64,000 bases of DNA from Candidatus Zixiibacteriota bacterium (lineage in GTDB: Bacteria > Zixibacteria > MSB-5A5 > WJJR01 > JAJRUJ01), in assembly GCA_020051695.1 (NCBI GenBank), contig JAGVQM010000019.1, forward strand, positions 15,221-79,220, read 5' to 3'. Shown in pieces: positions 2,546 to 61,736 of the stretch (position 1 is the first letter of the stretch; each line of letters starts with the position of its first letter). The notes beneath the pieces are model-generated. The model was not told the origin of the DNA and ran no database searches. It worked only from the letters and a program-made list of their open reading frames with translations. Made by a program: the position numbers and the translations under genes.

Positions 2546-3244
2546 GTGAAAAATTTGACAATCATCGTCGACAATAATCAGCGGGATTCGGCGGTCCCCA
2601 AGTACATCGAAAGCAAATCCGTGACCATTGAATATGCCAATTTGCGCACCGGGAGTTATTTGATCACCGATAACATGGCCATCGATCGTTTGACCAGCAC
2701 GCAATTTGTCGAGCTTACCTCGCAGAGGGCGTTATTCCGCCGGCTGCTTGATTTCAAGAAAACGTATGAAGAGCCGGTCCTGCTGGTCGAGGGCAATAGT
2801 CTGGCCAAGAATAAAAAAGTCTCCGGCGGCGCCCTGCGCGGGGCGATCTCCTATATCTGCTGTTTGAACCGCATTCCGATTATTTTTACCGCGGATGAAG
2901 TTGAGACCGCCGAGATGCTGTTCATTATCGCCAATCAAACACAGTTCGGCCTGGGCTATGAAGTCTCGGCCCCCGAACCGGAGACCCCGGCGGCGAGTGA
3001 AGGGCAACCGGTAAAGCCAAAGACTCCCGAGGATATCCAGTCGTATATCGTGCAGGCGCTGCCGGATGTCGGTCCGGCGCTGGCAACATCGATTATGACG
3101 ATGTACGGCAATTTGCGCACACTATTTTCCGCCACGGTCGGCGACCTGACCAAAGTCGAGGGCATCGGGCCGAAAAAGGCCAAGAAAATCATCGAGGTCT
3201 TCGATCTTGATTTCGCCGAGGAGAAAAAAGGCAAGAAAAAGTAA
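2546..3244 (+). CDS. ERCC4/XPF-like nuclease-fold protein with C-terminal (HhH)2, catalytic motif apparently degenerate
   Basis: N-terminal IIVDNNQRDS...LRTGSYLITDNMAIDRLTSTQF follows the ERCC4 layout VDxRE...GDY...ERKxxxD. C-terminal LPDVGPALATSIM and VEGIGPKKAKKIIEVF are two helix-hairpin-helix motifs. GTG start. Confidence 0.65.
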   Translation: MKNLTIIVDNNQRDSAVPKYIESKSVTIEYANLRTGSYLITDNMAIDRLTSTQFVELTSQRALFRRLLDFKKTYEEPVLLVEGNSLAKNKKVSGGALRGAISYICCLNRIPIIFTADEVETAEMLFIIANQTQFGLGYEVSAPEPETPAASEGQPVKPKTPEDIQSYIVQALPDVGPALATSIMTMYGNLRTLFSATVGDLTKVEGIGPKKAKKIIEVFDLDFAEEKKGKKK

Positions 3245-3270
3245 CAGCTCTGCCTGCACGCCGCTCTGCT

Positions 3271-3296
3271 GCCCGCCTTCGTGCGGGCTTTTTTTT
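3271..3296 (+). terminator. Rho-independent terminator after the ERCC4-like gene
   Basis: GCCCGC-cttcgt-GCGGGC hairpin followed directly by T8, 27 nt after the stop codon, between convergent genes. Confidence 0.8.
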
Positions 3297-3387
3297 GCAT
3301 GCGCACAGGGCATATGGGGCATCGCTGAATAATGCCGGTGGCGGTCGGGAAAAACCCGGCGGGATGATGGTGATAAAATCAGGCCGA

Positions 3388-4029
3388 TCAGCTGAACAAT
3401 TTGAGCAGCCAATCGTCGATGAGGAACTGCACGCGCTCGATCAGCAGCGAAATACGCGCCATCACGGTATAGCCGAACGACGCGCCGAAGCCGATCATCA
3501 ATGTCCAGATGCCGACTTTGGCGATGCCGCCGGTGGCGCCTTTGTGTTCCTTGGAGAAAAAGAAATAGACCAACGACGTGATGATGCCGATCACCACCAC
3601 GACCGTGTTGATACCCGCCCAAAAGTCGGTTTGCGAATTATGGAGAGCGACAAACGACTGCACGGTGCCGAAGATTTGTTCGAGGACTTTGGTCTGCATC
3701 TCCAGCGGGATCGCGACGCCGGTAGCGATGCCCAGATAGAACGCCAGCGGGTACCGGGAAATCCAGGCCCAGCGTTTGACGATCCGGGTCCACATCAGGA
3801 CCCCGAGGAACGCCGGGATAAGATACCACCATTTCCCGGCCAGCAGTTTCTGCCAGATGTTGGGGATAGCCACGTTGACGTACAGGATAGAAACCCAGTA
3901 CCCTGCCGAAACGCCGACGACCAGATGTTCGGTAAATTTATAGAACGGATTGTCCTTGTACAAAAACGAAAAAATGCACAGGGTCAGCACCGCGGCGACG
4001 GTTGTGGCTATGGCAGTGGCGAAATCCAT
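3388..4029 (-). CDS. Cassette subunit A, copy 1: polytopic membrane protein of unknown family
   Basis: 213 aa with multiple hydrophobic segments. Motifs SFLYKDNPFYKF, FFSKEHKGA and FGYTVMARISLL are shared with 34920-35684 and 38640-39383. Start lies 3 nt after the B1 stop. Confidence 0.85.
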   Translation of the reverse strand: MDFATAIATTVAAVLTLCIFSFLYKDNPFYKFTEHLVVGVSAGYWVSILYVNVAIPNIWQKLLAGKWWYLIPAFLGVLMWTRIVKRWAWISRYPLAFYLGIATGVAIPLEMQTKVLEQIFGTVQSFVALHNSQTDFWAGINTVVVVIGIITSLVYFFFSKEHKGATGGIAKVGIWTLMIGFGASFGYTVMARISLLIERVQFLIDDWLLKLFS

Positions 4030-4032
4030 CGT

Positions 4033-4902
4033 TTATAACCCAACCCTGTTCTTTTTGCGGGTGGCAAAATACCCGATGTTACCGACGATAATAAAAATAA
4101 TAATAATTGAGTGCGCGACCACCTGCACGCTCATGCCTTCCACGGCCTTCCCCGGCGTGCCGACCAGCGTTTCATATTCTGCGGCGCCCTGTAATCCACC
4201 GAGGATTCCGAAAATCTGACCGGTCTGCAGATAGGGGTAATAGTCGGTGGCCATGACCCCGGTGACCCCGATGGCCAGCGGAACCTGATACCGGCCGTTG
4301 CCGTATGTAATCCACCAGTCGGTCGCGGAGGTCCCCGAAATGTTGATCACGGCTTTGATATTCTGGTAATTGCGGATACCCTTCATCATCGGCAGCGAAT
4401 CCAGCGGCACATTGTAATAATCGTTGGGGAAGGGGATCCGGTAGTTTTGTCCCATGCCCAGGATAATCAATATCGGGTATGGCTTGTAGCCCAGGAACAC
4501 CCAGTCTTTACCGCTTTCGGGGCGGTAGCCGGTCAGTTCAAAATGCCGCTGGCAGGCCGTGTCGATGGCTTCAGCAGCCATCCCCGGCCCGTTTTGATGC
4601 AAGGCGGTGATAATGACTTTGATCTTCTTTTCAAAACATTGTTTCAGGACGGCCCGCGTCATCGGGTGCAGCTCCGCAAGCGTGGAGGGATCGTAATCCA
4701 TCGCCAGATGGATATAATCGCCGTCACTGAGACTGTTCATATAATCGTAAATGCTGCGCGCTTCCTTGGAAATCGGGATCGGAATCACCGGCTTGGCAAT
4801 GACCGAGAGGACCACTGCCAGCATCAAAAATCCATAGACCCACCGCCGGTCGATGGCGAACATGCGTTCGAAAATGTTTTTTCGCGAATTCTGCTCAGTC
4901 AT
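4033..4902 (-). CDS. Cassette subunit B, copy 1: bitopic protein with a large central soluble domain
   Basis: 289 aa. IDRR followed by an N-terminal TM, a central domain with DYDPSTLAELHPM and GGLQGAAEYE, then a C-terminal TM followed by a basic tail (RKKNR). Paralogs at 35688-36548 and 39380-40237. Confidence 0.85.
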   Translation of the reverse strand: MTEQNSRKNIFERMFAIDRRWVYGFLMLAVVLSVIAKPVIPIPISKEARSIYDYMNSLSDGDYIHLAMDYDPSTLAELHPMTRAVLKQCFEKKIKVIITALHQNGPGMAAEAIDTACQRHFELTGYRPESGKDWVFLGYKPYPILIILGMGQNYRIPFPNDYYNVPLDSLPMMKGIRNYQNIKAVINISGTSATDWWITYGNGRYQVPLAIGVTGVMATDYYPYLQTGQIFGILGGLQGAAEYETLVGTPGKAVEGMSVQVVAHSIIIIFIIVGNIGYFATRKKNRVGL

Positions 4903-4920
4903 GTTCCACCCGAGTTCAGA

Positions 4921-5547
4921 TCAATCCTTGCCCAGATATGATCGTTCAATACCCAGGACCACTTTCATCGCCGTCGAGACGATCCCCAGCCCGACCCCGA
5001 TCAAAATCGCCCGTTTGGCCGCCAGGTTGGGGACATTCAAAATCCAGTCCGAGGTTTTGCCGACCACCGAGGTCAGCGGCCCCAGCGGGAAAAACCGCAT
5101 CATGACGATGATGGCGGCGACCAGCAAAATACTGGCTAAAACCGAGCGGGCACGAAATGCCCGATAAGCGGCCGAGGCAATGAAAAAGGCCAGCAACGAA
5201 AACATCGTCGCCGAGATCGGGATCATGATGTTGTTGAAACTCCAGTCGAACGCCGTCGATAGCGGGGGATAATGATGGCCGATAACGCCGAACGCACTCA
5301 TGACAAACAAGCCGATGAGGGTGACGATGGAGTAACGCCAGGCCTCCGTTTTCCGCCTGATTCTGGTGATGCTCACGCGGGTCAGCGAAATGACGCCGAG
5401 CATCAGCGCAAACACGCCGATAATCGGCGGCCAGTCCAGGGCAATGAATTCGTAGAAAAACTCAGACTTTTCGTGGGGTACGAAATACTGCACGACCATA
5501 AACAGCCCGCAGGAAAAGATAATGATCAGTGGAAACTGCCGTTTCAT
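4921..5547 (-). CDS. Cassette subunit C, copy 1: polytopic membrane protein
   Basis: 208 aa. MKRQFPLII N-terminus, FFIASAAYRAFRARS, and NVPNLAAKRAILIGVGLGIVS..VLGIERSY. Paralogs at 36553-37341 and 40255-40917. Confidence 0.85.
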   Translation of the reverse strand: MKRQFPLIIIFSCGLFMVVQYFVPHEKSEFFYEFIALDWPPIIGVFALMLGVISLTRVSITRIRRKTEAWRYSIVTLIGLFVMSAFGVIGHHYPPLSTAFDWSFNNIMIPISATMFSLLAFFIASAAYRAFRARSVLASILLVAAIIVMMRFFPLGPLTSVVGKTSDWILNVPNLAAKRAILIGVGLGIVSTAMKVVLGIERSYLGKD

Positions 5548-5556
5548 ATCCGTACC

Positions 5557-6906
5557 CTAAATATTCAATGCAAAATAATCCGTGAGCCAGCCCAGATTTA
5601 AAATCCCGGCAATCACTCCGATGACCATGGCCACCAACAGGAGCGCCTTGGCATAATCCTGGGCCTTTAACGTCCCCAACAGAATCGGTTCCCGTCCCAG
5701 GTAGGCCGATGCCGCGTATAATTCCTCACCGATGAGCGTATAGTCGCACGCCACAACGAAAAACGGAAGTTGGGTCACCCGGTCGGTCCCGGAAATCTGG
5801 ATCGACCCGGCCAGCGAACCGGTTTCCGCCAGGATCAGCGATTCGGCGTAGAACACACCCAGGTAGAAATTCGTCGCTGTCTGCCGCCGCAACATGACAC
5901 CGTTGACTGCGGCGACATAGGCAAACTGGTTTTGGGTGACAAAATAGACCATATCTTCGTTATAATCATCCACGCGGCCGGCGTCGATGTAGGCCTGTTT
6001 GACCGTTTCCTGCGCAATGGTCATCACAATCGAATCATAACAGGGGACGATAAGTTCGGTCTGGTACTCGGCGACTTTTTTGGCGACGCGGGAAAGAATG
6101 GTAAACGAGGCAATGGTGGCGATTTCATCGGGCGCCCCCAAACCGAGCACATACAAGATCGGCCGCCCCATTTCGGTCGCGCGGCCGATGGCCTCATCGA
6201 CGGCGTTGATCCCCGCCAACGGCCGGATATACAGTTCCCTGCCGCCCCTGGCCAGTCTGACCATGGTCAGCATCAAGCCCCCGAAGATCAGCACGGCCAG
6301 GACGACCCATGTTTTCCCCGTATGATACCACTGCCCGGATGATTCGACCGGGCCGAAGATTGCGGATTCAGAGACGGCGCCGCCGGTACCGACAGACAGT
6401 ATTTTAAACGAGAATCCGACATCGTCGGGAGAATAATCGTTGCCTTCGCGGGCCTTGCCGCCGCGATTAAAATATTCTGCAGTACCCGCGGGGATACTCG
6501 CAATTGTATCCCATACGCCCTCAACGAGATGCCACCAGGTGCCCTGTTCGTTACGCCATTGGGGCCCGTCGCCCTGTGGTTCGGTCAACGGACCCGCCCA
6601 GCCCGGCGTACGCAGGATCCTATATTGCAGGACATTGTTCCGGCCGCCCAGATCATCGGCGGAGATGTTCCAGGTCAGATGGAAGGCATGGCCATGGTCG
6701 TTGGGGAGGTCCACCACTTGAAGATTGCTGATCGGCGCGGGGGGAGGTTCGACAATAATGGTCGTGGAATCGACAATCAGCGTATCAGAATGGGGTTCGT
6801 CAACTTGCGCTGCTGCTGAAAGGGATAAAACACAACAAATAAAAACGGTTGCGGCTATGCAAATCCAACAATGGGTTGTCCTCACCCCAGCGGCCTCACC
6901 AATCAT
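5557..6906 (-). CDS. Cassette subunit D, copy 1: signal peptide + FN3-like ectodomain + TM + conserved ~230 aa module + C-terminal TM
   Basis: 449 aa. Signal peptide ending SAAAQ, FN3-like HLTWNISADDLGGRNNVLQYRILR, TM WVVLAVLIFGGLMLTMV. Conserved motifs GRATEMGRPILY, AESLILAETG and LPFFVVACDYTLIGEELYAASAYL. Paralogs at 37350-38615 and 40951-42195. Confidence 0.85.
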   Translation of the reverse strand: MIGEAAGVRTTHCWICIAATVFICCVLSLSAAAQVDEPHSDTLIVDSTTIIVEPPPAPISNLQVVDLPNDHGHAFHLTWNISADDLGGRNNVLQYRILRTPGWAGPLTEPQGDGPQWRNEQGTWWHLVEGVWDTIASIPAGTAEYFNRGGKAREGNDYSPDDVGFSFKILSVGTGGAVSESAIFGPVESSGQWYHTGKTWVVLAVLIFGGLMLTMVRLARGGRELYIRPLAGINAVDEAIGRATEMGRPILYVLGLGAPDEIATIASFTILSRVAKKVAEYQTELIVPCYDSIVMTIAQETVKQAYIDAGRVDDYNEDMVYFVTQNQFAYVAAVNGVMLRRQTATNFYLGVFYAESLILAETGSLAGSIQISGTDRVTQLPFFVVACDYTLIGEELYAASAYLGREPILLGTLKAQDYAKALLLVAMVIGVIAGILNLGWLTDYFALNI

Positions 6907-7108
6907 CGGCGGCTAAGAAACCTAAATCCGAGCCAAAACGCAACCCCAAAAAGTGGAAATATCAGCGGAGTACTGTGAATATTATGTAAATATGCAGTAG
7001 AAAGAATTCTCGTGGCATGGGCATCTTCCGCCAAGGGCGGACAGGTGCCCCCGCAGATACACGGGCGGGACGCCCGTGCCACATGGTCATCATAGTCCGG
7101 GACTCGGG

Positions 7109-8458
7109 CTACGCCAGCTCAGCAAGAATCTTCTGAAAATCAGGAAAGCGGGCAAGGATGACATCGGCGTTGTCGATCGTCGTGTCCTTTTCACCGGATA
7201 AACCGGCGACCGCGAAAGCCATGCCGATATCACTGTCACCGTGACAATCAATGTCGGCGGCGTGCCATTCGGTAGGTCCTTCAATGGCCCAGCCGTCCTC
7301 CAGCTCGGCGACTTTGACCCCCATGCGGCGCAGGTTTTCGGTAACCGCGGCAAACGGCAGCAACCCGACATCCTGCAATTCTTTCGCGCCGCGAATCACA
7401 GTCACCCCCACCGCCGATCCGGCGACAACAGCGATTAACGGGAGCTGCCCCGCCAGCGAGGGAATTTCCGAGGCGGAAACTTTGGTAGCTTTGAGCGTCT
7501 CGCCGACCACCTCGATATCACCCACCGGCTCGCCGTTTTCGATACGCCGCTTCTGCGTGGTGATCTCGGCCCCCATGCGCCGCAGGATTTTCAACAGCCC
7601 GGTCCGCGTGGAATTCAAGCCGACGTCGGTGACGACAATCTCCGACCCCGGCCGCACGGTGGCGGCGGCGATCAGCGGCGCGGCCAGCTCATAATCGCCG
7701 GGGATGACCCAATCGACCGGCTGCAGCGGCGCCGCATGCGGAGTAACCGTCAGCCGTTTATGAAATACTTCCCGTTCGGCCAGCGCCTCGTCGGGACGCA
7801 GCAGTTGTTCGCGGCGGCTCAGCGGGCGCTCGGGCCGGACAATTGACGGTTCAATGCCATAGGCAGGTAAAATCCGCTCCAGACTGTCCGGCAACGGCAA
7901 ATCTTCGGTAATTTCGGTGGTGGACGAGGCAAACAGGGCTGCCATCAGCGCAACATCTTTAACCATCGGCAAGCAAGAGCCGGTGGCAATCAACGAACCG
8001 CGTGGCTGGACCGAATTGAATTTGATGCTGGTCTCATCGTTCTCACTGATTTCCGGCAAGATGCCCATGACCGCCAGGGGCTCGAAAACGGCCGCGCGGA
8101 TTGCCGCAGGCACATCTCCAACCAGTGTCGACGGCTGTTTTCCCCCGGCCAGCAGGCCCGCCAATAACCAGTAGGCGACGGGCGCGTCCGGACAATTCAA
8201 CTCGAGGGTGGCCGAAGTCTCCACGCCGGGCGGCCTGCCGTCGATTTGGATAACATGGCGCCCGGCGTTCACGGCCGAGCCGAGCCGGCGGACGCAGTCC
8301 AATACAGTTTGCGCACCGTGGTGCTCCGGCCAGTTGTTGATCGTCGATTTTCCGCCACACAACACCGACAGCACCGCTGCCCGCTGTGCCAGCGCAATGT
8401 CCGGCGGAAAACGGAAACTGCCCCGCACCCGCCGTGTCGGTTTAATCGTCAGTTTCAT
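7109..8458 (-). CDS. EPSP synthase (AroA/MurA fold) family protein, divergent, canonical active-site residues apparently absent
   Basis: 449 aa. VGLNSTRTGLLKILRRMGAEI, EPVGDIEVVG..LKA and a C-terminal MAFAVAGL..FPDF all follow the AroA layout. However, PPDIALAQR replaces PGDKSxSxR and ELQDVGLLP replaces ELRVKESDR. Starts 6 nt after the argS stop. Confidence 0.6.
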   Translation of the reverse strand: MKLTIKPTRRVRGSFRFPPDIALAQRAAVLSVLCGGKSTINNWPEHHGAQTVLDCVRRLGSAVNAGRHVIQIDGRPPGVETSATLELNCPDAPVAYWLLAGLLAGGKQPSTLVGDVPAAIRAAVFEPLAVMGILPEISENDETSIKFNSVQPRGSLIATGSCLPMVKDVALMAALFASSTTEITEDLPLPDSLERILPAYGIEPSIVRPERPLSRREQLLRPDEALAEREVFHKRLTVTPHAAPLQPVDWVIPGDYELAAPLIAAATVRPGSEIVVTDVGLNSTRTGLLKILRRMGAEITTQKRRIENGEPVGDIEVVGETLKATKVSASEIPSLAGQLPLIAVVAGSAVGVTVIRGAKELQDVGLLPFAAVTENLRRMGVKVAELEDGWAIEGPTEWHAADIDCHGDSDIGMAFAVAGLSGEKDTTIDNADVILARFPDFQKILAELA

Positions 8459-34741: not shown

Positions 34742-34815
34742 TACCCCCGGCTGGATTCGAACCAGCTACCCTCGGCTTAGAAGGCCGATGCTCTATCCAT
34801 ATGAGCTACGGGGGC
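34742..34815 (-). tRNA. tRNA-Arg (anticodon TCT)
   Basis: 74 nt cloverleaf read by hand: acceptor GCCCCCG/CGGGGGT, D arm GCTC..GAGC, anticodon stem TCGGC/GCCGA with loop CTTCTAA, T arm GCTGG-TTCGAAT-CCAGC. CCA is not encoded. Confidence 0.9.
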
Positions 34816-34919: not shown

Positions 34920-35684
34920 CTAGTTAATAAAGCCCAGCCAGTCGCCGAACAGGAAGCGCATGCGGCCGACCAACAGGGAAATACGCGCCATCACCGTGTA
35001 GCCGAAACCCGCGCCGAAAGTGACCATCAGCAGGTAAATGCCCACGCGCGAGGCGGCGCCGAATGCGCCCTTGTGTTCTTTGGAGAAAAAGAAATACACG
35101 ATCCCGCAAAAGACGCCAAGGAACACCACGACTGCTGACAGCGAATCCGTCGTCAGGAAACCGCCGTCCGGCCCGAACACGGCCAGCGGGTTGATCGTGT
35201 TATAAATCTGCCCGATAAAATCCGAACGCAGGTAGCGGACAAAATTCAATCCGGCAGTGGTCCCGACAATAAACGCCAGCGACCAGCGGGAAATCCAACC
35301 AAGCTTCGAAGACAACCGCAGCAATAAAATAATGCCCAAAATCAGCGGCAGGAGATACCAGTAATTCGGTTCGGCATCGGCCACCGAGGGTAAAAATGGC
35401 CGTACCGCCGGCGGATGCAGCCGCCCGATCAGGTTGGGGACCAGTGTCGTCCAAAACCCCATCGACATCCAGTACGCCGCCGAGACCCCAACAAACAAAT
35501 GCTCGGCAAATTTATAGAACGGGTTGTCTTTATACAAAAAGCTCAGGATACATAAAGTCAGGAACGCGCCGAACGTGATATAAAACCCTTCAAACGCCCG
35601 GGCATCGCGCGCCATGATCGAGATGACGAACGCAATGATCAGCACGATAAATCCGATCAGATAGATGATAGCCCTGCGTTGCAT
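34920..35684 (-). CDS. Cassette subunit A, copy 2
   Basis: 254 aa polytopic protein with SFLYKDNPFYKF, FFSKEHKGA and FGYTVMARISLL. Start lies 3 nt after the B2 stop. Confidence 0.85.
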   Translation of the reverse strand: MQRRAIIYLIGFIVLIIAFVISIMARDARAFEGFYITFGAFLTLCILSFLYKDNPFYKFAEHLFVGVSAAYWMSMGFWTTLVPNLIGRLHPPAVRPFLPSVADAEPNYWYLLPLILGIILLLRLSSKLGWISRWSLAFIVGTTAGLNFVRYLRSDFIGQIYNTINPLAVFGPDGGFLTTDSLSAVVVFLGVFCGIVYFFFSKEHKGAFGAASRVGIYLLMVTFGAGFGYTVMARISLLVGRMRFLFGDWLGFIN

Positions 35685-35687
35685 CGC

Positions 35688-36548
35688 CTATTTCGCCCGC
35701 GCTTTCCGTTTCCGGTCGATGAAAAAGGTCGCGTTGCCGATAATGATGAACAGCATGATCACGATATGCGCCACCGCCTGCGGCCCCATCATCTCCAGCC
35801 CGCCGTGCGGCATTTGCTCAAAATCGGGATATTTCCGGATCATTTCCGATTCGTATTCGGCTGCGCCCTTGATCCCCCCCATCATGCCCAGCATCTGGTT
35901 GGGATAATACGGATACAACTGCGGCGCCGAGACCGCGGTCACCCCGCCGGCCACCGGTATGTTGCCGGGGTCGCCGGCAAAAAGGATCCACTCTTTCAAA
36001 CCGGGAAAGCCGCCGCCGAAGGCCGCGATTAAGTCCATGTTTTTCAAACTGCGGACATCCCGCATCATCGGAATGCTGTCAATCTGCGTGCCGTTGACAT
36101 CGGTAGTATACATCTTCTTCATGTCGGTAATGATCACGTTGATCAGGCCCTGATTACCCGCCTTGTATCCCAGATGGACATAATCCACACCGCAAACCTT
36201 ATCCGGGAAATGTGTCGTGACGATACGGTCGATCGTCTCATCGGCCAGATTTTGCCCCGTGCCCCACAACGCCATGACATACAATTTCAGATTTCGCCGG
36301 CAACAGTGATACATCACGGCATCAACCATCGGTTGCTGTTCGGGAACAGTGGAGGGATCGAAATCCAGCGAAATCAACACCCGCGAACCCTCAGGCAGGG
36401 TCTCGATTTTATCGAAGATCTTCTGCACAATCGGCGTAATCCGCTCGGGAAAGATGACATTGAACAACAGGGGAATAATTACGGACAAGGCAATAAACAA
36501 AAAGATTATCCGCCGGTCGATGTTCTTGATGGTATCGAAAAAGGCCAT
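35688..36548 (-). CDS. Cassette subunit B, copy 2
   Basis: 286 aa. NIDRR followed by a TM, DFDPSTVPEQQPM, GGIKGAAEYE, and a C-terminal TM with an RKRKARAK tail. Confidence 0.85.
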   Translation of the reverse strand: MAFFDTIKNIDRRIIFLFIALSVIIPLLFNVIFPERITPIVQKIFDKIETLPEGSRVLISLDFDPSTVPEQQPMVDAVMYHCCRRNLKLYVMALWGTGQNLADETIDRIVTTHFPDKVCGVDYVHLGYKAGNQGLINVIITDMKKMYTTDVNGTQIDSIPMMRDVRSLKNMDLIAAFGGGFPGLKEWILFAGDPGNIPVAGGVTAVSAPQLYPYYPNQMLGMMGGIKGAAEYESEMIRKYPDFEQMPHGGLEMMGPQAVAHIVIMLFIIIGNATFFIDRKRKARAK

Positions 36549-36552
36549 GGCG

Positions 36553-37341
36553 TTAATCCTTGTCCCGTCCGAGATATGTCCGTTCGATGCCCAGGATCAC
36601 CCGCAGCGACATCGAAATTACTCCCAGCGAAATGCCGATAATAATTGCCCGCTGGCCCGCCAGGTTGGGGACCCCCATAATCCAGTTGGTCAGGTTAGGC
36701 ACTTCGAAAAACGACAGCGCATCAGGCAGCCAGAACGTGGCATAGTACCCGGCGGGCGTCCGCCCCAGCAGAATGACAAAGGCAGTGACCAGCAGGACGG
36801 TGGCTTCCTTGTTTTTAGCCCGGAATGCGCGATACGACGCCGAGGCCACAAAAAAGGCCAGCAGCGCGTACATCGTCGCTTTCAGCGGAGTAAAGACATA
36901 CGTGAAAAAGTCCTGAAACACCGAGCCGGTGGCGGTGAGATTCCCCACCCAGCCGCCGGGGTTGCCGATTTTGAACAACCCGGCCCAGAGCATGACGAAA
37001 AATCCGATGAGTGTGACCATCGAGAAAAACCAGTCTTTGCCGCGCCGGTCCTCGATCCCGCCCATCGCATGGAAGGGAAACGCAATGAGCATCTTCAACG
37101 GCCAGAAGCCCCCCTGTTTCCTGCTTTCCGTGAAATAGAACTTCAACCCGCGGAAGAACCGCCCACTGTGGATCCGCACCAGGTTGCCGCCGCCGAGGAA
37201 GAAGGCAAACACGGCGATGATATCAAAATACAGGCTGAAATTTTCACCCAGCCGGCCGAACGGGTCATGCGGAATAAACGCCGCGATGATCAGCACCGCG
37301 CCGACGGTGAACGTGATTAATAATGGTACCTGCCGTTTCAT
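36553..37341 (-). CDS. Cassette subunit C, copy 2
   Basis: Start placed at ATG 37341 (MKRQVPLLITF), matching the C1 and C3 N-termini. FFVASASYRAFRAKNKEAT and GQRAIIIGISLGVISMSLRVILGIERTY. Confidence 0.85.
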   Translation of the reverse strand: MKRQVPLLITFTVGAVLIIAAFIPHDPFGRLGENFSLYFDIIAVFAFFLGGGNLVRIHSGRFFRGLKFYFTESRKQGGFWPLKMLIAFPFHAMGGIEDRRGKDWFFSMVTLIGFFVMLWAGLFKIGNPGGWVGNLTATGSVFQDFFTYVFTPLKATMYALLAFFVASASYRAFRAKNKEATVLLVTAFVILLGRTPAGYYATFWLPDALSFFEVPNLTNWIMGVPNLAGQRAIIIGISLGVISMSLRVILGIERTYLGRDKD

Positions 37342-37349
37342 GGTTTTGC

Positions 37350-38615
37350 CTATTGATTCAGCCGGAACAGATCGCGCACCCATTCGCCGGCGGTGGTGGC
37401 AATCCCGACATTAAACAATGACCCGATAGTCAGCAGTGTCACGCCGGCCAGGATCGCCAGCATCGCGATCATCTTGCCGACATCCTGCCCCTTCAACGAC
37501 CCCAGCTGGCGCGGTTCGTGCGACAGATAAGCCGAGGCGGCGAACAACTCCTCACCGATCAGCGTATAATCGCAGGCCGCGACAAAAAACGGCAGCTGTG
37601 CGGGCATCGCCGTGCCGGCGATCTGGATCGCCTCGATGGAATGGCCGGTCTCGGCCATAATCAGCGATTCGGCGAAAAACGCGCCGAGATAGAAACAGGT
37701 CGCCGGCCTTTCGCGCACCATGATCCCGTCCACCGCCGCGACATACCCGAACTGTTCGTCGGTGACATACTGCACATAATCATCCGAGTATGCATCGGGG
37801 CGCCCGGCGGCCAGATAGGCCTCTTTAATCGACTCGCGCGCGGTGGTCATCACAATCGAGCGTGAAGTCGGGACAAACAACTTGGAATCATATTCGGCGA
37901 TGGTCTTGGCGATCCGCCCCAAGATCGTAATCCCGGCCACGGTCTGCACGTCGTCCATGTCCTGGATGCCGGGGATAAACAAAATCGGCCGCCCCATTTC
38001 GGTGGCGCGTCCGATCGCCTCGTCGACCGCTTCGAGTCCGGCGATTTTGCGGATAAAGAGTATTTTGCCCCTTTTGGCCGAGGCGATGAAATACCCGATA
38101 AACAACGAGATGATTCCACCGACGACAAACAAATTCAGGATATTGAAATTAAACCACTGCGCGGACGATCGGACCGGACCGATCACCGGCGAAGACGACG
38201 AGCCCCCGGCTGTCTGGGTCTCGATTCTGTAATAGAAATCCGTCCCCGGCACGGTCGAGGCATCAGTGTATCTTTTTTCTCCGGCCGAGGAAAACCCGGT
38301 CTCGCGAAACGGCCCTTCCGGCGATTCGGCGCGCAAAATGCGGTAGCCCGTGACCAGGTTTTCGCCGGGACGGTCATCGGCCGACAGCTCCCAAAAGACA
38401 TTGATCGAATGCCCTTCATCGGAAGGCGTGTCTTCCGCCCCCGCATTGACCGGCGGCGCAGGCCGGCGGACCGCGGCCATCATCCCCGCAACGCCCGTAG
38501 CGGCGGAATCGGCCGGCGCCGAATCGACAACCTGGGCGACCATGCCGGAAGCCGGCAGCAGCATCCCTGCCAGAAGACAGCAAAAAAGAATTTTGTGCAG
38601 CACCTTCATGGTCAC
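37350..38615 (-). CDS. Cassette subunit D, copy 2
   Basis: 421 aa. Signal peptide, FN3-like INVFWELSADDRPGENLVTGYRILR, a TM, GRATEMGRPILF, AESLIMAETG, LPFFVAACDYTLIGEELFAASAYL, and a C-terminal TM. Confidence 0.85.
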   Translation of the reverse strand: MTMKVLHKILFCCLLAGMLLPASGMVAQVVDSAPADSAATGVAGMMAAVRRPAPPVNAGAEDTPSDEGHSINVFWELSADDRPGENLVTGYRILRAESPEGPFRETGFSSAGEKRYTDASTVPGTDFYYRIETQTAGGSSSSPVIGPVRSSAQWFNFNILNLFVVGGIISLFIGYFIASAKRGKILFIRKIAGLEAVDEAIGRATEMGRPILFIPGIQDMDDVQTVAGITILGRIAKTIAEYDSKLFVPTSRSIVMTTARESIKEAYLAAGRPDAYSDDYVQYVTDEQFGYVAAVDGIMVRERPATCFYLGAFFAESLIMAETGHSIEAIQIAGTAMPAQLPFFVAACDYTLIGEELFAASAYLSHEPRQLGSLKGQDVGKMIAMLAILAGVTLLTIGSLFNVGIATTAGEWVRDLFRLNQ

Positions 38616-38639: not shown

Positions 38640-39383
38640 CTAGTTAATCAATTGCAACCAATCACTCATGAGATAATCCATGCGGCCGATCAACAGCGAT
38701 AACCGGCTCATGACCGTATACCCGAATGATGCGCCGAACGTGAGCATCAGTGTCCAGATCCCGATTTTGGCCACCCCGCCGAATGCGCCTTTATGTTCCT
38801 TGGAAAAATAAAAATAGATCAGTCCGGAGAGCGTCCCGATGACCAATATTGCCTGAGAAATGGTCGCCCACAAGTCGAGATTCCCGGCGGCATCGTAACG
38901 CTGCAGCGGGCCAGCAGAGGCCCCCAGCTGGAGGATGCCGTTGGAAACAAAGTAATTGATAAAATACAACCCCGCCGTCGCGCCGACCACCACCGCCAGC
39001 GGCCAGCGGGAGATCCACCCCGCTTTGGGAAACAACCGCATCAGCATCAGGACGCCCAGAAGCCCGCCGATCAGCATCATCCACCGGTCATCCCATCCGC
39101 CGCCCTGCACGAACGTCGTGTGATAGGCCGCGCCGACCCCGACGAAGAGCTTGGAATACATATTCTGCCAGAATAATGAGACAAACCAATAGCCGGCGGA
39201 AATTCCCACAAATGCGGCTTCGGAAAACTTGTAATACGGGTTGTCTTTATACAAGAAGGAAAAGATACCGATGGTAAAAAACGCACCCAGGGTCACCGCA
39301 AGGCCCTGGGATGCGGCCAGGATCGCAAAAACGGCGATTCCGACGGCGATAACGATATAGCCGACTACTTTGGTGTTCATCAT
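38640..39383 (-). CDS. Cassette subunit A, copy 3
   Basis: 247 aa with SFLYKDNPYYKF, YFSKEHKGA and FGYTVMSRLSLL. ATGA overlap with the B3 stop. Confidence 0.85.
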   Translation of the reverse strand: MMNTKVVGYIVIAVGIAVFAILAASQGLAVTLGAFFTIGIFSFLYKDNPYYKFSEAAFVGISAGYWFVSLFWQNMYSKLFVGVGAAYHTTFVQGGGWDDRWMMLIGGLLGVLMLMRLFPKAGWISRWPLAVVVGATAGLYFINYFVSNGILQLGASAGPLQRYDAAGNLDLWATISQAILVIGTLSGLIYFYFSKEHKGAFGGVAKIGIWTLMLTFGASFGYTVMSRLSLLIGRMDYLMSDWLQLIN

Positions 39384-40237
39384 GTTTGCTTCCGCCGGCC
39401 ACCGGCAAAGTAGGCCACATTACCCACGATGATGAAGAGGATCACGATGATGTGGGCAAATGACTGGGATAACATGAATTTCGTGGCCTTGCCCAGGGTA
39501 CCGGCCAACTCTTCAAATTCCGAAGCGCCCTTGAGGCCGCCCAGAATCCCCCGGAGCTGCCCGCTTTCAAAATAGGGATACGCCAGCGGGGCCTGTACTG
39601 CTGTCGTCCCCCCCAATAATTGTACCCCGAAACGATCAACGCCGAATTGCACCCACTCCACAATACCCGGATATCCGGCGGAGACATTGATCACAAAGTC
39701 GATATTGTTAAAATTCTGCATTCCCTGCATCAGCGGTAACTCGGCGATTGGCGTGCCCCGGAAATCGCGCGGGAATGCCGCGGGAATCGACGAACCCATC
39801 CGCTGGATCACCAATTCATTGCCGGCCTGGAAACCGAGGTTGACCCAGTCGCGGCCATAGGTCAGCGTCTTGCCCTTCCAGATAATCGTTTCTCCGGGCA
39901 CCTCGCCCAGTACGGACTCCAAGGCGGCATTGGCCTGCTGCGGTCCCTGCGGCCACAGTCCCATGATGATCATCTTCAAGTCATGATCGAGGCAATACCG
40001 GATCGCCGTTATCGCCATCGGCTGCAATTCCGGCGCCGAGGGAGGGTCATAATCACAGGGAATGAGCACGCGGGCGCCCGGCTGCAGTCGCGCCAGTTCG
40101 TCAAAACCACGACGCACTTCGTAAGAAATCGTGGTCTTTTGGGAGATATTCAAAAATAACGGCAGGGTGACCGCAACGATGACGAACAGGAAAATAATCC
40201 GCCGGTCGATCTTCATCAATTTGTCCCAAAAACCCAT
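39380..40237 (-). CDS. Cassette subunit B, copy 3
   Basis: Start placed at ATG 40237 (MGFWDKLMKIDRRIIFLF), matching B1 and B2. The tracked 348 aa ORF adds 63 non-homologous residues that overlap C3. DYDPPSAPELQPM and GGLKGASEFE. Confidence 0.85.
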   Translation of the reverse strand: MGFWDKLMKIDRRIIFLFVIVAVTLPLFLNISQKTTISYEVRRGFDELARLQPGARVLIPCDYDPPSAPELQPMAITAIRYCLDHDLKMIIMGLWPQGPQQANAALESVLGEVPGETIIWKGKTLTYGRDWVNLGFQAGNELVIQRMGSSIPAAFPRDFRGTPIAELPLMQGMQNFNNIDFVINVSAGYPGIVEWVQFGVDRFGVQLLGGTTAVQAPLAYPYFESGQLRGILGGLKGASEFEELAGTLGKATKFMLSQSFAHIIVILFIIVGNVAYFAGGRRKQT

Positions 40238-40254
40238 GCCGTTCCTGCCTGTCA

Positions 40255-40917
40255 TCAATCGCCGCTGACAAATGTCCGTTCGATCCCCAGAATAATCCGC
40301 AATGATGTCGACATGATCCCCAGCGCGATGCCGATCATGATCGCCCGCTGCCCGGCGGTGTTGGGGATGTTCATCACCCAATCGGCCCAGTTGGACAACC
40401 ACAGCCAGTGGGGCAACTGCAACCATTCTTTGGTGATCATATCACCGACCGGCACCCGCCCCAGCATCACAAAAAATGCAGCCAACAGCAGCATCGTCGC
40501 TTCCTTGTTGCGGGCGCGGAAGGCCCGATAGGAAGCCGAGGCCACGAAAAAACCGAGAAGGGCAAACATCGTGGAGGACAGCGGATCATAGACATTATCA
40601 TAAATGAACATGAACCGCGTACCGGGCTCCTGAAAATTCGCTCCTCTGGAGAAAAAGATGCCGACGATAAATATTGCGGCAAAACCGATAATCGTCACCA
40701 GTGAATACATCCAGTCTTTCTTGCGCCGGGCAACCTTGAGCAACGACAATTTCATCAAGTTCAGCGCACCCAGCCAGATGGCAAAGGCCTGAATGATCCC
40801 AAACCAGTCGGAAAACCAGTCGGAAAACCGGGAAACCGGTTCGTGCGGCACGAAATATTGGAAGATGTACATGATCCCCACCACCGCAGTGATGATCAAT
40901 GGAACTTCACGCTTCAT
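40255..40917 (-). CDS. Cassette subunit C, copy 3
   Basis: 220 aa. MKREVPLII, FFVASASYRAFRARNKEAT and GQRAIMIGIALGIMSTSLRIILGIERTF. Confidence 0.85.
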   Translation of the reverse strand: MKREVPLIITAVVGIMYIFQYFVPHEPVSRFSDWFSDWFGIIQAFAIWLGALNLMKLSLLKVARRKKDWMYSLVTIIGFAAIFIVGIFFSRGANFQEPGTRFMFIYDNVYDPLSSTMFALLGFFVASASYRAFRARNKEATMLLLAAFFVMLGRVPVGDMITKEWLQLPHWLWLSNWADWVMNIPNTAGQRAIMIGIALGIMSTSLRIILGIERTFVSGD

Positions 40918-40950: not shown

Positions 40951-42195
40951 CTACACCTGGAACCACCCGGAAATATCCGCAATCTTAAATGTTCCCAGGA
41001 GCAAACCTGCGACAGCCGCGATCAAGATCAGTACTTTGGCCACGTCCTGACCCTTGACGCTGCCCAGTAATTTCGGTTCTTTCGACAGATAGGCCGAGGC
41101 GGCAAAAAGCTCTTCGCCAATTAATGTATAGTCGCAGGCCGCCACAAAAAACGGCAATTGAGAGGCATTCGCGGTGCCCGCGATCTGAATCGCACCGATC
41201 GCATTGCCGGTTTCGGCCATAATTAACGACTCGGCGTAAAACGCGCCCATATAGAAAATCGTCGCCGGTTTCTCGCGGACAAACAAGCCGTCCAGCGCAG
41301 CGGCATAACCGAACTGGTCATCGGTAAGATAACGCACGATGTCTTCGTTGAACGCATCCGGCCGGCCGACGTTCAAATAGGCCTCCTTCACCACCTCGCG
41401 GGAGGTGATCATCACCAGTGAACGCGAAACCGGAACATCCAATTGCGCATCGTACTCCGCGGCCAGTTTGGCGATCCGCCCCAGGATGGTCACCCCAGCC
41501 AGGGTCTGGACATTATCCATATCCTGTGTCCCGGGGATATACACCAGCTTGCGGCCCATTTCGGTGGCGCGCCCGACCGCCTGTTCGACTTCCGCCAGAC
41601 CGGCGATAGGCCGGACGTACAAATCCTTGCCCTTCTTGGCCACATTGATAAACCACAAAATCGAAATTCCGATTACCAGCACCCAGGGCAAAATCCGTGC
41701 GGTGCGAATGATATGAAACCACTGGCCGGAGGCTTTCGCGGCCCCGGAGAGCGGCGAAGCCACGCCGGCAAACAGTTTTTCCCCGGCCGGAGTGAACTTG
41801 CCGGCCAGGGCGGCCACCTTATAGTAATAATTTACCCCGTTGTCGACCTGGCCGTCGGTGAGCGTGGTCATTCCGGCGGTCGCGGAACCAACGGTATCAA
41901 ACGGCCCGTCGGGCGAAGTCGAACGCAAGATAATATACTTGGTGACATTTCTGCGGCCGGCAACATCATCGGCGGACAGTTCCCAACTGATAGTAATCGA
42001 TTTCCCGGCGTCATCAGGGGTATCCTGGGCTTCGACCGAGACAACCGGCGCCGGGGCTTCGAGTTGGGGCGGAGTTTCAGCCACAACGACCGTGGTCGAG
42101 TCGACGGGAGCATCCTGTGCCCAGGCAGGCGATGCCGCGCCACATACAGGAAAGACCAGCAGGAACAGGGAGATGGACAACGCTTTTTTCATCAT
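40951..42195 (-). CDS. Cassette subunit D, copy 3
   Basis: Start placed at ATG 42195 (MMKKALSISLFLLVFPVCGAASPAWA signal peptide). The tracked GTG at 42225 lies inside a terminator hairpin. ITISWELSADDVAGRRNVTKYIILR, GRATEMGRKLVY, AESLIMAETG and LPFFVAACDYTLIGEELFAASAYL. Confidence 0.85.
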   Translation of the reverse strand: MMKKALSISLFLLVFPVCGAASPAWAQDAPVDSTTVVVAETPPQLEAPAPVVSVEAQDTPDDAGKSITISWELSADDVAGRRNVTKYIILRSTSPDGPFDTVGSATAGMTTLTDGQVDNGVNYYYKVAALAGKFTPAGEKLFAGVASPLSGAAKASGQWFHIIRTARILPWVLVIGISILWFINVAKKGKDLYVRPIAGLAEVEQAVGRATEMGRKLVYIPGTQDMDNVQTLAGVTILGRIAKLAAEYDAQLDVPVSRSLVMITSREVVKEAYLNVGRPDAFNEDIVRYLTDDQFGYAAALDGLFVREKPATIFYMGAFYAESLIMAETGNAIGAIQIAGTANASQLPFFVAACDYTLIGEELFAASAYLSKEPKLLGSVKGQDVAKVLILIAAVAGLLLGTFKIADISGWFQV

Positions 42196-42210
42196 CAGCA
42201 GTTCCTGCAC

Positions 42211-42241
42211 AAAAAAAATCCCCACCTGCTTTGAGGTGAGG
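42211..42241 (-). terminator. Intrinsic-terminator hairpin inside the 5' leader of the tandem cassette operon (candidate attenuator)
   Basis: Minus strand reads CCTCACCT-caaagc-AGGTGGGG (8 bp stem with one G.U), then A and T8, ending 15 nt before ATG 42195. No minus-strand gene ends immediately upstream of it. Confidence 0.65.
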
Positions 42242-46105: not shown

Positions 46106-46202
46106 CCCCACCTCCCGCCGAGCGCAAGTGTCCGGCATTACTACGATTCACTAGTAATAATACTACATGAATCGGGGGTGTCAACAAAAATCCAGGCGCC
46201 GA

Positions 46203-61662: not shown

Positions 61663-61736
61663 GGCGGTGTAGCTCAGCTGGCTAGAGCAGCGGAATCATA
61701 ATCCGCGTGTCCGGGGTTCGAATCCCTGCACCGCTA
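61663..61736 (+). tRNA. tRNA with CAT anticodon (elongator Met, or Ile2 if lysidine-modified)
   Basis: 74 nt cloverleaf: acceptor GGCGGTG/CACCGCT, D arm GCTC..GAGC, anticodon stem GCGGA/TCCGC with loop ATCATAA, T arm CGGGG-TTCGAAT-CCCTG. It lacks the initiator features (C1xA72, three GC pairs in the anticodon stem). CCA is not encoded. Confidence 0.9.

What the first reader, a model, noticed from the sequence alone, without database searches (positions are those of the whole stretch)
5557..6906. D subunits: conserved inner module, variable FN3-like ectodomain
From the juxtamembrane (Y/F)(I/V)R(P/K)IAGL..V(D/E)(E/Q)A(I/V)GRATEMGR motif to the C-terminal TM, the three D proteins align almost without gaps and share long identical blocks. 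The region between the signal peptide and the first TM differs in both length and sequence. Only an FN3-like core is retained there (W..SADD....N...Y.ILR). This pattern is what one expects of a constant engine or signalling module coupled to a specificity-determining outer domain.
Basis: partly seen in the sequence, partly recalled or inferred. Interest (0 to 1): 0.5.

Follow-up and report, generated by a model that had tools for sequence, protein, structure and literature searches.

The report
Unknown membrane complex, variable outer domain
This gene encodes one subunit of a widespread but uncharacterised four-protein inner-membrane complex of uncultivated bacteria, in which the cytoplasmic part is almost unchanged across phyla while the fibronectin-like outer domain changes quickly.

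Summary

Across 112 homologs from many candidate phyla, the cytoplasmic module is exactly 196 residues with no indels and 65% mean identity. The FN3 region is 79-228 residues and 31% identical. Family-wide, 40-1080 residues precede TM1 (FN3, beta-propeller, HEAT repeats or nothing).

D is the first gene of a strictly ordered D-C-B-A cassette, present three times in the window. All four subunits are conserved on the cytoplasmic face and variable on the periplasmic face. Elsewhere, a GlmL-like ASKHA ATPase (F) and a 375-aa protein (E) often sit directly upstream of the first cassette.

No function, structure or paper exists for any part. The "specificity" reading is weak. FN3 diverges as fast between close orthologs as between paralogs, and some cassettes lack it. 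Subunit B, not FN3, shows cassette-specific conservation.

My best guess, with low confidence, is a modular membrane machine with a shared cytoplasmic ATPase and variable periplasmic adaptors.

The parts
5557..6906 (-). D1 gene (449 aa), first gene of cassette 1
   Evidence: ORF list. Pfam DUF6754 at E 7.5e-115 over aa 191-444. Identical to database protein P0001 from a 178-kb contig.
6808..6906 (-). D1 signal peptide (aa 1-33, ...SLSAAA|QV)
   Evidence: Hydrophobic segment at aa 15-33 followed by an AxA motif. D2 and D3 have equivalent N-terminal segments. Cleavage is inferred, not tested.
6742..6807 (-). D1 Pro-rich linker (aa 34-55), low-confidence and variable
   Evidence: pLDDT 40-43. Family length 0-151 aa and 20% identity.
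6337..6741 (-). D1 periplasmic FN3 domain (aa 56-190), with a 25-aa insertion at aa 106-130 relative to D2 and D3
6250..6336 (-). D1 conserved GQW(Y/F) interface motif and TM1 (aa 191-219)
   Evidence: Hydropathy. K+R is 0.72 before and 3.97 after TM1 across 112 homologs. The DUF6754 model starts here.
5647..6234 (-). D1 cytoplasmic alpha/beta module (aa 225-420), the constant core
   Evidence: Exactly 196 aa in 112 of 112 homologs, with 65% mean identity. Matched end to end at 56-84% identity in the best 150 cluster representatives. Alternating beta-alpha secondary structure in the AF2 model, though aa 327-393 have pLDDT below 50.
5560..5646 (-). D1 C-terminal TM helix and short periplasmic tail (aa 421-449)
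   Evidence: Hydropathy and K+R counts. 23% identity across the family.
4921..5547 (-). C1 (208 aa), 6-TM subunit with N and C termini inside
   Evidence: Hydropathy. No Pfam or NCBIfam family. Follows D in all complete cassettes of 80 loci.
4033..4902 (-). B1 (289 aa): TM, periplasmic Rossmann-like domain, TM, K/R-rich cytoplasmic tail
3388..4029 (-). A1 (213 aa), about 6-TM subunit
   Evidence: No family. Last gene of the cassette.
40951..42195 (-). D3 (414 aa from the annotated start), first gene of cassette 3
   Evidence: DUF6754 at E 2.4e-117. Start confirmed by exact database look-up.
38640..40917 (-). C3 (40255-40917), B3 (39380-40237) and A3 (38640-39383)
   Evidence: Paralogs of C1, B1 and A1 at 44%, 38% and 52% identity.
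37350..38615 (-). D2 (421 aa), first gene of cassette 2, 24 nt downstream of A3
   Evidence: DUF6754 at E 2.9e-120. ORF list.
34920..37341 (-). C2 (36553-37341), B2 (35688-36548) and A2 (34920-35684)
   Evidence: Paralogs of C1, B1 and A1.

Best explanation
D is the lead subunit of a previously uncharacterised four-subunit inner-membrane complex, D-C-B-A, which the window encodes three times.

Shown:
- D has a signal peptide, a periplasmic FN3 domain sitting directly on the membrane, a TM helix, a 196-residue cytoplasmic alpha/beta module of fixed length and a final TM helix.
- C and A are polytopic membrane proteins.
- B places a Rossmann-like domain in the periplasm between two TM helices.
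- In all four subunits the cytoplasmic face is conserved and free of indels, and the periplasmic face is variable.

Inferred:
- The conserved cytoplasmic face, above all the D module, is a common docking or catalytic platform that works with a shared cytoplasmic pair. That pair is F, a GlmL-like ASKHA ATPase, and E, a 375-aa protein with a barrel-sandwich-like N-terminus.
- One F-E pair serves one to three cassettes.
- Energy or conformational change passes through the A/C membrane core to the periplasmic side. There, cassette-specific parts (mainly B) and fast-evolving or exchangeable D ectodomains (FN3, propeller, HEAT repeats or none) contact periplasmic ligands or envelope partners.
- In short, one shared motor serves several membrane modules with different outer parts. 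This could act as a transporter or as a device that transmits force across the membrane. Which cargo or partner is involved is unknown.
For: Architecture and fold.

Strict D-C-B-A order in 80 genome loci from Zixibacteria, Eisenbacteria, Poribacteria, WOR-3, Stahlbacteria, Fermentibacteria, Armatimonadota and others, with 1-3 tandem cassettes. Gene gaps in the window are 3-18 nt.

Constant inside, variable outside:
- D module: 196 aa without indels, 65% identity, against FN3 at 31%.
- A and C: cytoplasmic loops score 1.9-3.9 bits (five of the six at 2.8 or more) with 0-0.9 inserted residues, against periplasmic loops at 1.6-2.4 bits with 0-8.
- Family-wide: 40-1080 residues before TM1, with fn3, PQQ_2 propeller and HEAT domains found.

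Link to F and E:
- F and E lie directly upstream and co-oriented, with 3-16 nt gaps, in 13 of 80 D-seeded loci.
- From the E side, F precedes E in 42 of 53 loci and D directly follows E in 23 of 58, with D elsewhere in the locus in 3 more.
- Two independent look-ups showed F-E-D-C-B-A and a divergent d-c-b-a / F-x-E arrangement.
- There is one F-E pair per array of 1-3 cassettes.
- F keeps the ASKHA phosphate motifs DCGSTTTK (53 of 53) and DIGGATTD (52 of 53).
- E is as conserved as the D module, at 55-60% identity across phyla.

B shows cassette-specific conservation: 55-81% to orthologs against 32-38% between paralogs.
Against: - No F or E gene is in this window (tblastn).
- 32 of 58 E loci with at least 2 kb downstream show no D within the fetched flank. 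Poribacteria loci have D-C-B-A without an adjacent F-E. The link is therefore frequent but not obligatory, and genome-wide co-occurrence was not tested.
- D's module has no recognisable NTP-binding or catalytic motif and no hit to any solved structure by sequence.
- Half of the module (aa 327-393) was modelled with pLDDT below 50, and I could not run a fold search on it alone.
- No subunit resembles a known transporter, stator or sensor family.
- ASKHA ATPases are not known to energise membrane transport (general knowledge).
- Nothing here is experimental.
Confidence: 0.4

Rival explanations
1. The FN3 ectodomain is a weakly constrained structural spacer or stabiliser of the periplasmic face and has no recognition role. 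Its variability reflects relaxed selection. Any cassette specificity lies in B. The rest of the architecture stands.
For: - FN3 identity falls to the 35-45% plateau already among close orthologs and equals the value between paralogs.
- D variants without FN3 occur inside the same arrays.
- FN3 ends about 10 residues before TM1, so it sits on the membrane surface.
- The conserved residues are fold-signature positions shared with unrelated FN3 repeats nearby.
- B carries the ortholog-versus-paralog signature.
Against: - Ectodomains are swapped for large interaction scaffolds such as propellers, HEAT repeats and up to about 1000 aa of unknown sequence. That is hard to explain for a passive spacer.
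- S82 and D84 are invariant in an exposed acidic loop, which suggests a conserved contact or metal site.
- Fast divergence could equally be diversifying selection. dN/dS was not measured.
Confidence: 0.3
2. The complex is a membrane-embedded enzyme system, for example for envelope lipid or glycan modification. The D cytoplasmic module and the B periplasmic domain would be two catalytic Rossmann-like domains on opposite sides, and A/C would be the conduit for a lipid-linked intermediate. F and E would be metabolic accessories.
For: - The D module is extremely conserved and free of indels, with many invariant charged residues (R228, R242, E245, R273, R340, E355, E361, D388, E394, E395, K414).
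- In both B and D the invariant residues cluster at the C-terminal ends of the beta strands, the usual ligand site of alpha/beta folds.
- B has an invariant DYDP stretch after strand 1.
Against: - There is no Pfam, NCBIfam or PDB sequence similarity to any enzyme.
- This reading does not explain why one genome needs three cassettes or why D ectodomains are exchangeable.
Confidence: 0.15
3. D is a transmembrane sensor. The ectodomain binds a signal and the conserved cytoplasmic module relays it.
For: - The bitopic-receptor-like layout of ectodomain, TM and conserved inner domain.
- Variable ectodomains including propellers, and one fragment of a TctC solute-binding domain.
Against: - No kinase, GGDEF, HAMP, MCP or DNA-binding domain occurs in D or in C, B or A.
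- The strict co-inheritance with two polytopic subunits and B is not typical of sensors.
- The TctC case covers only profile positions 1-106 of 274 in a single protein and may be an assembly chimera.
Confidence: 0.08

Closest known systems
Pfam DUF6754 (PF20539)
   Same: D1, D2 and D3 match the full model (profile positions 2-257) at E 1e-115 to 1e-120. The model covers TM1, the cytoplasmic module and the last TM.
   Different: The family is only a catalogued sequence cluster. No function, structure or paper is attached to it. The Pfam entry does not cover the FN3 part, the operon partners or the F-E link.
Fibronectin type III domains (PF00041), as in bitopic receptors and bacterial glycoside hydrolases
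   Different: D1 has no Pfam fn3 match at E <= 0.1. Homologs score 19.6-21.9 bits, below the 25-bit cut-off. Here FN3 sits directly on a bacterial inner-membrane complex and can be lost or replaced.
ECF-type transporters with a shared energising module serving several membrane components (a working analogy only)
   Same: One conserved cytoplasmic set (F-E) per array of 1-3 divergent membrane cassettes. The faces that would have to fit the shared partner are the conserved ones.
   Different: There is no ABC ATPase and no EcfT or S-component homology. F is an ASKHA-fold protein. The sharing is inferred from gene order only.
FtsEX / MacB-type mechanotransmission systems (a working analogy only)
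   Same: The idea of a cytoplasmic ATPase driving periplasmic domains of an inner-membrane complex that contact envelope partners.
   Different: No sequence or fold relation was found. No ABC domain is present.
Na+-NQR / Rnf complexes
   Same: A loose resemblance in parts. There are small 6-TM subunits and a TM-anchored periplasmic domain. There is also a soluble subunit (E) with sub-threshold NqrA_N and RnfC_N barrel-sandwich matches (E 0.0031 and 2e-05).
   Different: No Rnf-Nqr or FMN_bind family hit, no conserved Cys clusters and no flavinylation motif. B has a Rossmann-like fold, not an FMN_bind fold.
GlmL/MutL accessory proteins of B12-dependent mutases (for partner F, which lies outside the window)
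   Same: PF13941 match at E 1e-118 to 1e-131, with intact ASKHA phosphate motifs.
   Different: Scores are far below the NCBIfam GlmL and Or-4 cut-offs (209-247 bits against 475-600). F is about 150-200 aa longer. Where it is linked, F lies in a membrane-complex operon and no mutase gene was seen among the annotated neighbours.

Membership tests
Pfam DUF6754 (PF20539) | Full-length match to the family HMM above the gathering score (27 bits) | tested here: met
   382.9, 400.6 and 391.0 bits for D1, D2 and D3.
Fibronectin type III fold | Seven-strand beta-sandwich superposable on solved FN3 domains | tested here: met
Pfam fn3 (PF00041) | HMM match at or above the 25-bit gathering score | tested here: not met
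   No hit at E <= 0.1 for D1, D2 or D3. Homologs L034 and L065 reach 19.6 and 21.9 bits.
ABC / ECF transporters | ABC ATPase (Walker A/B, signature motif) and a recognised permease family | tested here: not met
   No ABC_tran or permease family hit in D, C, B or A with Pfam or NCBIfam.
MotAB / ExbBD / TolQR stators | MotA_ExbB and ExbD/MotB family subunits | tested here: not met
   No such Pfam hits. A and C show no invariant acidic residue in a TM core.
Rnf / Na+-NQR | Rnf-Nqr family 6-TM subunits, a covalent-FMN domain with the S/T-G-A-T/S motif, and Fe-S or flavin sites | tested here: not met
   No family hits. B reads GVTGVM in place of the flavinylation motif and has a Rossmann-like fold. 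Only E has sub-threshold barrel-sandwich matches.
Transmembrane sensors (histidine kinases, chemoreceptors, GGDEF/EAL receptors) | A recognised cytoplasmic output domain | tested here: not met
   Only DUF6754 was found in D, and nothing in C, B or A.
Known anti-phage defence systems (PADLOC) | Match to a PADLOC model | tested here: not met
   0 hits for D1, C1, B1 and A1.
GlmL family (partner F, outside the window) | Score above the NCBIfam GlmL, Or-4 or TIGR01319 cut-offs | tested here: not met
   209-247 bits against 475; 203-220 against 600; 158-184 against 204. The broader PF13941 model is met.
D-C-B-A complex (defined here) | The four proteins assemble physically into one complex | not testable with these tools
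   Only gene order and tight spacing are available. No multimer prediction was possible.

The most novel reading that the evidence does not exclude
D-C-B-A together with F and E is a previously unrecognised class of envelope machine, widespread in uncultivated phyla (Zixibacteria, Poribacteria, WOR-3, Eisenbacteria, Fermentibacteria and others). A shared ASKHA-fold ATPase would drive several interchangeable inner-membrane modules through the near-invariant DUF6754 cytoplasmic domain. The outer domains, such as FN3, propeller and HEAT repeats, would couple this to different periplasmic or outer-membrane partners. If so, it would be the first membrane transport or force-transmitting system powered by an actin/Hsp70-fold ATPase rather than a P-loop ATPase or ion gradient.
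Probability: 0.2. Interest if true: 0.85.

Novelty: categorically new. Interest (0 to 1): 0.62.

Why it matters
At least 596 GTDB species representatives and 1854 50%-identity protein clusters carry this module. Nearly all named examples are from phyla without cultured members. No component has a function, a structure or a mention in the searched literature.

The cytoplasmic domain has a fixed length and 65% identity across phyla, which is comparable to core enzymes. It therefore probably does something important and mechanistically constrained. The same genomes multiply the cassette and vary its outer face.

Working out the function would annotate thousands of 'hypothetical' genes. It could also reveal a new way of coupling cytoplasmic energy to the cell envelope. 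The operon definition (F-E-[D-C-B-A]n) and the domain boundaries given here make that testable by complex prediction, heterologous expression and cryo-EM.

Tried and rejected
- **B and the D module as ancient paralogs.** They share the same TM / six-strand alpha-beta / TM order and a vaguely similar I.(V/I)(T/S)G...P(Y/F)(L/F)...G..AA stretch. hhalign on full families and on isolated domains gives probability of 5% or less. Rejected for lack of evidence.
- **A and C as paralogs.** hhalign probability 0.3%.
- **Hydrophobic segments aa 345-372 and 379-404 of D as extra TM helices.** Their hydropathy is below threshold. They fit the beta4-alphaD-beta5-beta6 positions of an alternating alpha/beta pattern. 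Considered unlikely but not excluded, because pLDDT is below 50 there.
- **Sequence searches of solved structures** with D, the D profile, the B profile, the E profile and F returned nothing meaningful.
- **Fold searches with the whole D1 model** were swamped by FN3 hits, so they say nothing about the cytoplasmic module.
- **Literature searches** for 'DUF6754', 'PF20539' and Zixibacteria + FN3 gave zero papers. The GlmL/ASKHA search returned nothing relevant.
- **PADLOC defence models:** no hit.
- **Riboswitch or other RNA leader** that might name a substrate: none in the window or in five related loci.
- **Promoter and terminator scan of 3000-7400:** counts are no different from shuffles.
- **TctC solute-binding fusion (P0481) as evidence for transport.** Only positions 1-106 of 274 of the model match, in a single cluster, so it may be a chimera. 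Not relied on.
- **Conserved neighbours beyond F and E.** None recur across phyla. DUF4388 in one WOR-3 locus and Tol-Pal in one Zixibacteria locus are single cases.
Full report
**1. What is at the coordinates**

The minus-strand ORF 5557-6906 encodes a 449-aa protein, D1. A six-frame motif search finds exactly three proteins in the window with the A[IV]GRATEMGR stretch. They are D1, D2 (37350-38615) and D3 (40951-42225, annotated start 42195).

Each of the three is the first gene of a tightly packed, co-oriented four-gene cassette.
- Cassette 1: D1, C1 (4921-5547, 208 aa), B1 (4033-4902, 289 aa) and A1 (3388-4029, 213 aa), with gaps of 3-18 nt.
- Cassettes 3 and 2 lie head to tail (42195 down to 34920). 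Only 24 nt separate A3 from D2.

**2.

In the three-way alignment, the region from the juxtamembrane motif to the GQD..K motif before the last TM helix has no gaps and long identical blocks. The N-terminal part differs in length, and D1 has a 25-aa insertion. Paralog identity is 53-69% in the C-terminal module. It is 39-43% in the ectodomain, and only over the part that aligns.

With homologs added:
- Across 122 sequences, column information is 3.4-4.2 bits for aa 226-420 and 1.3-2.9 bits for the ectodomain.
- Across 112 sequences taken from 80 genome loci of many phyla, the cytoplasmic stretch aa 225-420 is exactly 196 residues in every sequence, with 65% mean pairwise identity.
- In the same set the FN3 region is 79-228 residues at 31% identity, and the signal peptide plus linker is 0-151 residues at 20%.

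An exhaustive phmmer search with the 196-aa module against 1.84 billion cluster representatives found 1854 proteins at E <= 1e-3 and 617 at E <= 1e-30. In the best 150 the module is matched end to end at 56-84% identity, while total length runs from 300 to 1341 aa. The part before TM1 is 40-1080 residues, median 288.

**3. Fold and topology**

The C-terminal 255 residues are Pfam DUF6754 (E 7.5e-115 to 2.9e-120).

Hydropathy gives an N-terminal signal-like segment ending AAA|Q, then TM1 at about aa 198-219 and a last TM at about aa 421-441. Averaged over 112 homologs, there are 0.72 K+R in the 15 residues before TM1 and 3.97 after it. There are 2.12 before the last TM and 0.74 after it. No dedicated topology predictor was available.

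The cytoplasmic module shows an alternating beta-alpha pattern, which suggests a Rossmann-like layout. Residues 327-393 were modelled with pLDDT below 50 even though they are the most conserved. Because FN3 dominates every structural hit list, I obtained no fold assignment for this module.

**4. The other subunits**

C is a 6-TM protein with both ends inside, and A has about six TM helices.

None of A, B or C has a Pfam or NCBIfam family. Profile-profile comparison finds no homology among the four families.

In A and C, five of the six cytoplasmic loops score 2.8-3.9 bits and the sixth 1.9 bits, with 0-0.9 inserted residues. The periplasmic loops score 1.6-2.4 bits, and four of the five take 5-8 inserted residues. 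The 'constant inside, variable outside' pattern is thus a property of the whole complex and not only of D.

**5. Distribution and gene order**

D has at least 8000 clusters at 90% identity, all named hypothetical or DUF6754. The 80 loci kept come from MAGs of Zixibacteria, 'Ignavibacteria'-labelled bins, Eisenbacteria, Poribacteria, WOR-3, Stahlbacteria, Fermentibacteria, Aegiribacteria, Hyd24-12, CSSED10-310 and Armatimonadota. The window itself is most like Zixibacteria.

In every locus with enough sequence the order is D-C-B-A. It occurs as a single cassette (29 loci) or in tandem arrays of two or three. Outside the cassette, neighbours are not conserved between phyla, with one exception described next.

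**6. Two further partners outside the window**

In 13 of the 80 loci, two co-oriented genes lie directly before the first D, with gaps of 3-16 nt in L035 and L065.
- F is 595-669 aa. It matches Pfam MutL/GlmL (PF13941) at E 1e-118 to 1e-131 but scores well below the NCBIfam GlmL cut-offs.
- E is about 375 aa with no family. It has only sub-threshold NqrA_N and RnfC_N barrel-sandwich matches.

F keeps the ASKHA phosphate-1 and phosphate-2 motifs in 53 of 53 and 52 of 53 copies. E is a large family of at least 8000 clusters, with constant length and 55-60% identity across phyla.

I then seeded a search from E, using 80 metagenome loci.
- F precedes E in 42 of 53 loci with enough upstream sequence.
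- D directly follows E in 23 of 58 loci with at least 2 kb downstream.
- D lies elsewhere in the locus in 3 more, and 32 show none.

Two separate look-ups gave F-E-D-C-B-A on a 2.97-Mb contig. They also gave a divergent arrangement in a Zixibacteria MAG, with two cassettes on one strand and F, a 264-aa gene and E on the other. There is one F-E pair per array of one to three cassettes.

Neither F nor E is in the present window. Whether the source genome has them elsewhere could not be checked.

**7. Is the ectodomain a specificity determinant?**

The evidence is mostly against this reading.
- Relative to D1, orthologs that are 93-96% identical in the cytoplasmic module are only 59-76% identical in FN3.
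- At 88-89% module identity, FN3 is at about 40%, the same as between paralogs within this genome (32-43%).
- The median ratio of divergence is 3.8. FN3 therefore evolves fast everywhere and does not keep a cassette-specific sequence.
- B's periplasmic domain does keep one. Its closest orthologs are 55-81% identical, while the three paralogs are 32-38% identical.
- Cassettes whose D lacks FN3 altogether exist. One example is L009:9283-10167, 294 aa, with a short leader followed by DUF6754. This type occurs in 12 loci.
- Among 74 diverse family members, all have DUF6754. Five have Pfam fn3, three a PQQ_2 propeller and two HEAT repeats. One has a partial TctC domain, and the rest have no recognised domain in up to about 1000 N-terminal residues.
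- The conserved W..SADD...Y.ILR signature also occurs in five FN3 repeats of the neighbouring 979-aa protein (43199-46138), so it marks a local FN3 subtype.

My reading is that the D ectodomain is an exchangeable, fast-evolving outer module. It could be an adaptor to envelope macromolecules, or it could be under weak or diversifying selection. Stable cassette identity is more likely to reside in B.

**8. Most likely mechanism (inference)**

Several facts need explaining together. All four subunits share a near-invariant cytoplasmic face. The module has a fixed length. The cassettes are multiplied, while F-E occurs once per array and is itself very conserved.

The simplest model is a modular machine. 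In it, F (an ATPase) and E dock on the D module and the cytoplasmic loops of A and C. Each D-C-B-A cassette would be a membrane module with its own periplasmic part.

Whether it moves a substrate or transmits force to periplasmic partners cannot be decided. The protein-interaction nature of the D ectodomains (FN3, propeller, HEAT) leans slightly towards contact with macromolecules.

I give this model 0.4. The rivals are a passive FN3 spacer (0.3, which is compatible with most of the model), a two-sided membrane enzyme (0.15) and a sensor (0.08).

**9. Comparison with known systems**

Membership is met only for the uninformative DUF6754 family and, structurally, for the FN3 fold. Defining features were tested and not met for ABC/ECF transporters, Mot/Exb/Tol stators, Rnf/Nqr complexes, classical sensors and PADLOC defence systems.

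No solved structure is related by sequence to D, B, E or F. No paper in the searchable library mentions DUF6754 or PF20539.

**10. Verdict**

The architecture and topology parts of the interpretation are supported, but the specificity claim is not.

The object is a component of a widespread multi-gene membrane system with no characterised relative. It is catalogued only as a DUF for one of its six parts. Function remains inferred, and the decisive computations (complex prediction, a fold search on the isolated module, and a genome-wide co-occurrence census) could not be run here.

Noticed in passing
Outside the window: L035:2746-5880, L065:2391-5576, L084:8129-11122, L083:7340-11128: A GlmL-like ASKHA ATPase (F, about 600-670 aa, motifs DCGSTTTK and DIGGATTD intact) and a very conserved 375-aa protein without a family (E) form a pair. 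This pair often sits directly upstream of the first D-C-B-A cassette. Neither is in this window.
   Followed up: yes
L009:9283-10167 (also L016, L017, L019, L020, L021, L024, L058, L060, L076, L079, L081): These D variants have no FN3 domain. They are about 294 aa, with a short leader, the SAQWF motif and DUF6754. In some Zixibacteria arrays they form the third cassette.
   Followed up: partly
window 43199-46138 (-): A 979-aa secreted protein lies just upstream of cassette 3. It has five FN3 repeats (Pfam fn3 E 3.8e-35) carrying the same W..[SP][AG]DD...Y.I.R signature as the D ectodomains, followed by about 400 aa of unassigned, repeat-like sequence. Any functional link to the cassettes is unknown.
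   Followed up: partly
window 4033-4902, 35688-36548, 39380-40237 (-): B is the most divergent subunit between the three paralogous cassettes (32-38% identity) but is well conserved among orthologs (55-81%). Its invariant residues (DYDP, GPG, GYKPYP, D161, W197, GVTG, GG..GAAEYE) lie in the stretches that follow its predicted beta strands. That placement suggests a ligand or metal site in the periplasm.
   Followed up: partly
window 7109-8458 (-) and L055/L056/L059/L068-L073/L078 about 4170-5800: Shikimate-pathway genes lie immediately upstream of D in two distant lineages. In this window aroA (EPSP synthase) follows argS. In nine Poribacteria loci a shikimate-kinase-like gene (read from its P-loop N-terminal motif) and a 361-aa ORF that I take, from its N-terminal sequence alone, to be 3-dehydroquinate synthase are upstream. 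Neither Poribacteria ORF was scanned against a family library. This may be coincidence.
   Followed up: no
P0481 (467 aa, found): One family member carries the first 106 of 274 positions of a TctC solute-binding domain in front of DUF6754. It could be a real fusion or an assembly chimera.
   Followed up: partly
window 34742-34815 (-) and 61663-61736 (+): Two tRNA genes. The first lies about 100 nt downstream of A2, at the end of the cassette 3 and 2 array.
   Followed up: no
window 14915-17275 (-): A 786-aa protein combines a peptidase M50 (site-2 protease-like) membrane domain with a C-terminal HlyD-type barrel-sandwich membrane-fusion domain, which is an unusual fusion.
   Followed up: no
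window 3295-4038 (+), 36349-37320 (+), 41443-42234 (+): Long ORFs run antisense to A1, to C2 (and the end of B2) and to D3. They have low-complexity, Arg/Gly/Pro/His-rich translations. They are most likely by-products of the 55-59% G+C coding strand and not genes.
   Followed up: no
L061:9242-11313 and L083:11619-16239: Single-locus neighbours of the system. In one WOR-3 MAG, a DUF4388 protein and two small proteins follow A. In one Zixibacteria MAG, a Tol-Pal-like cluster (ExbB/ExbD/TonB_2/TolB/OmpA) follows E.
   Followed up: no
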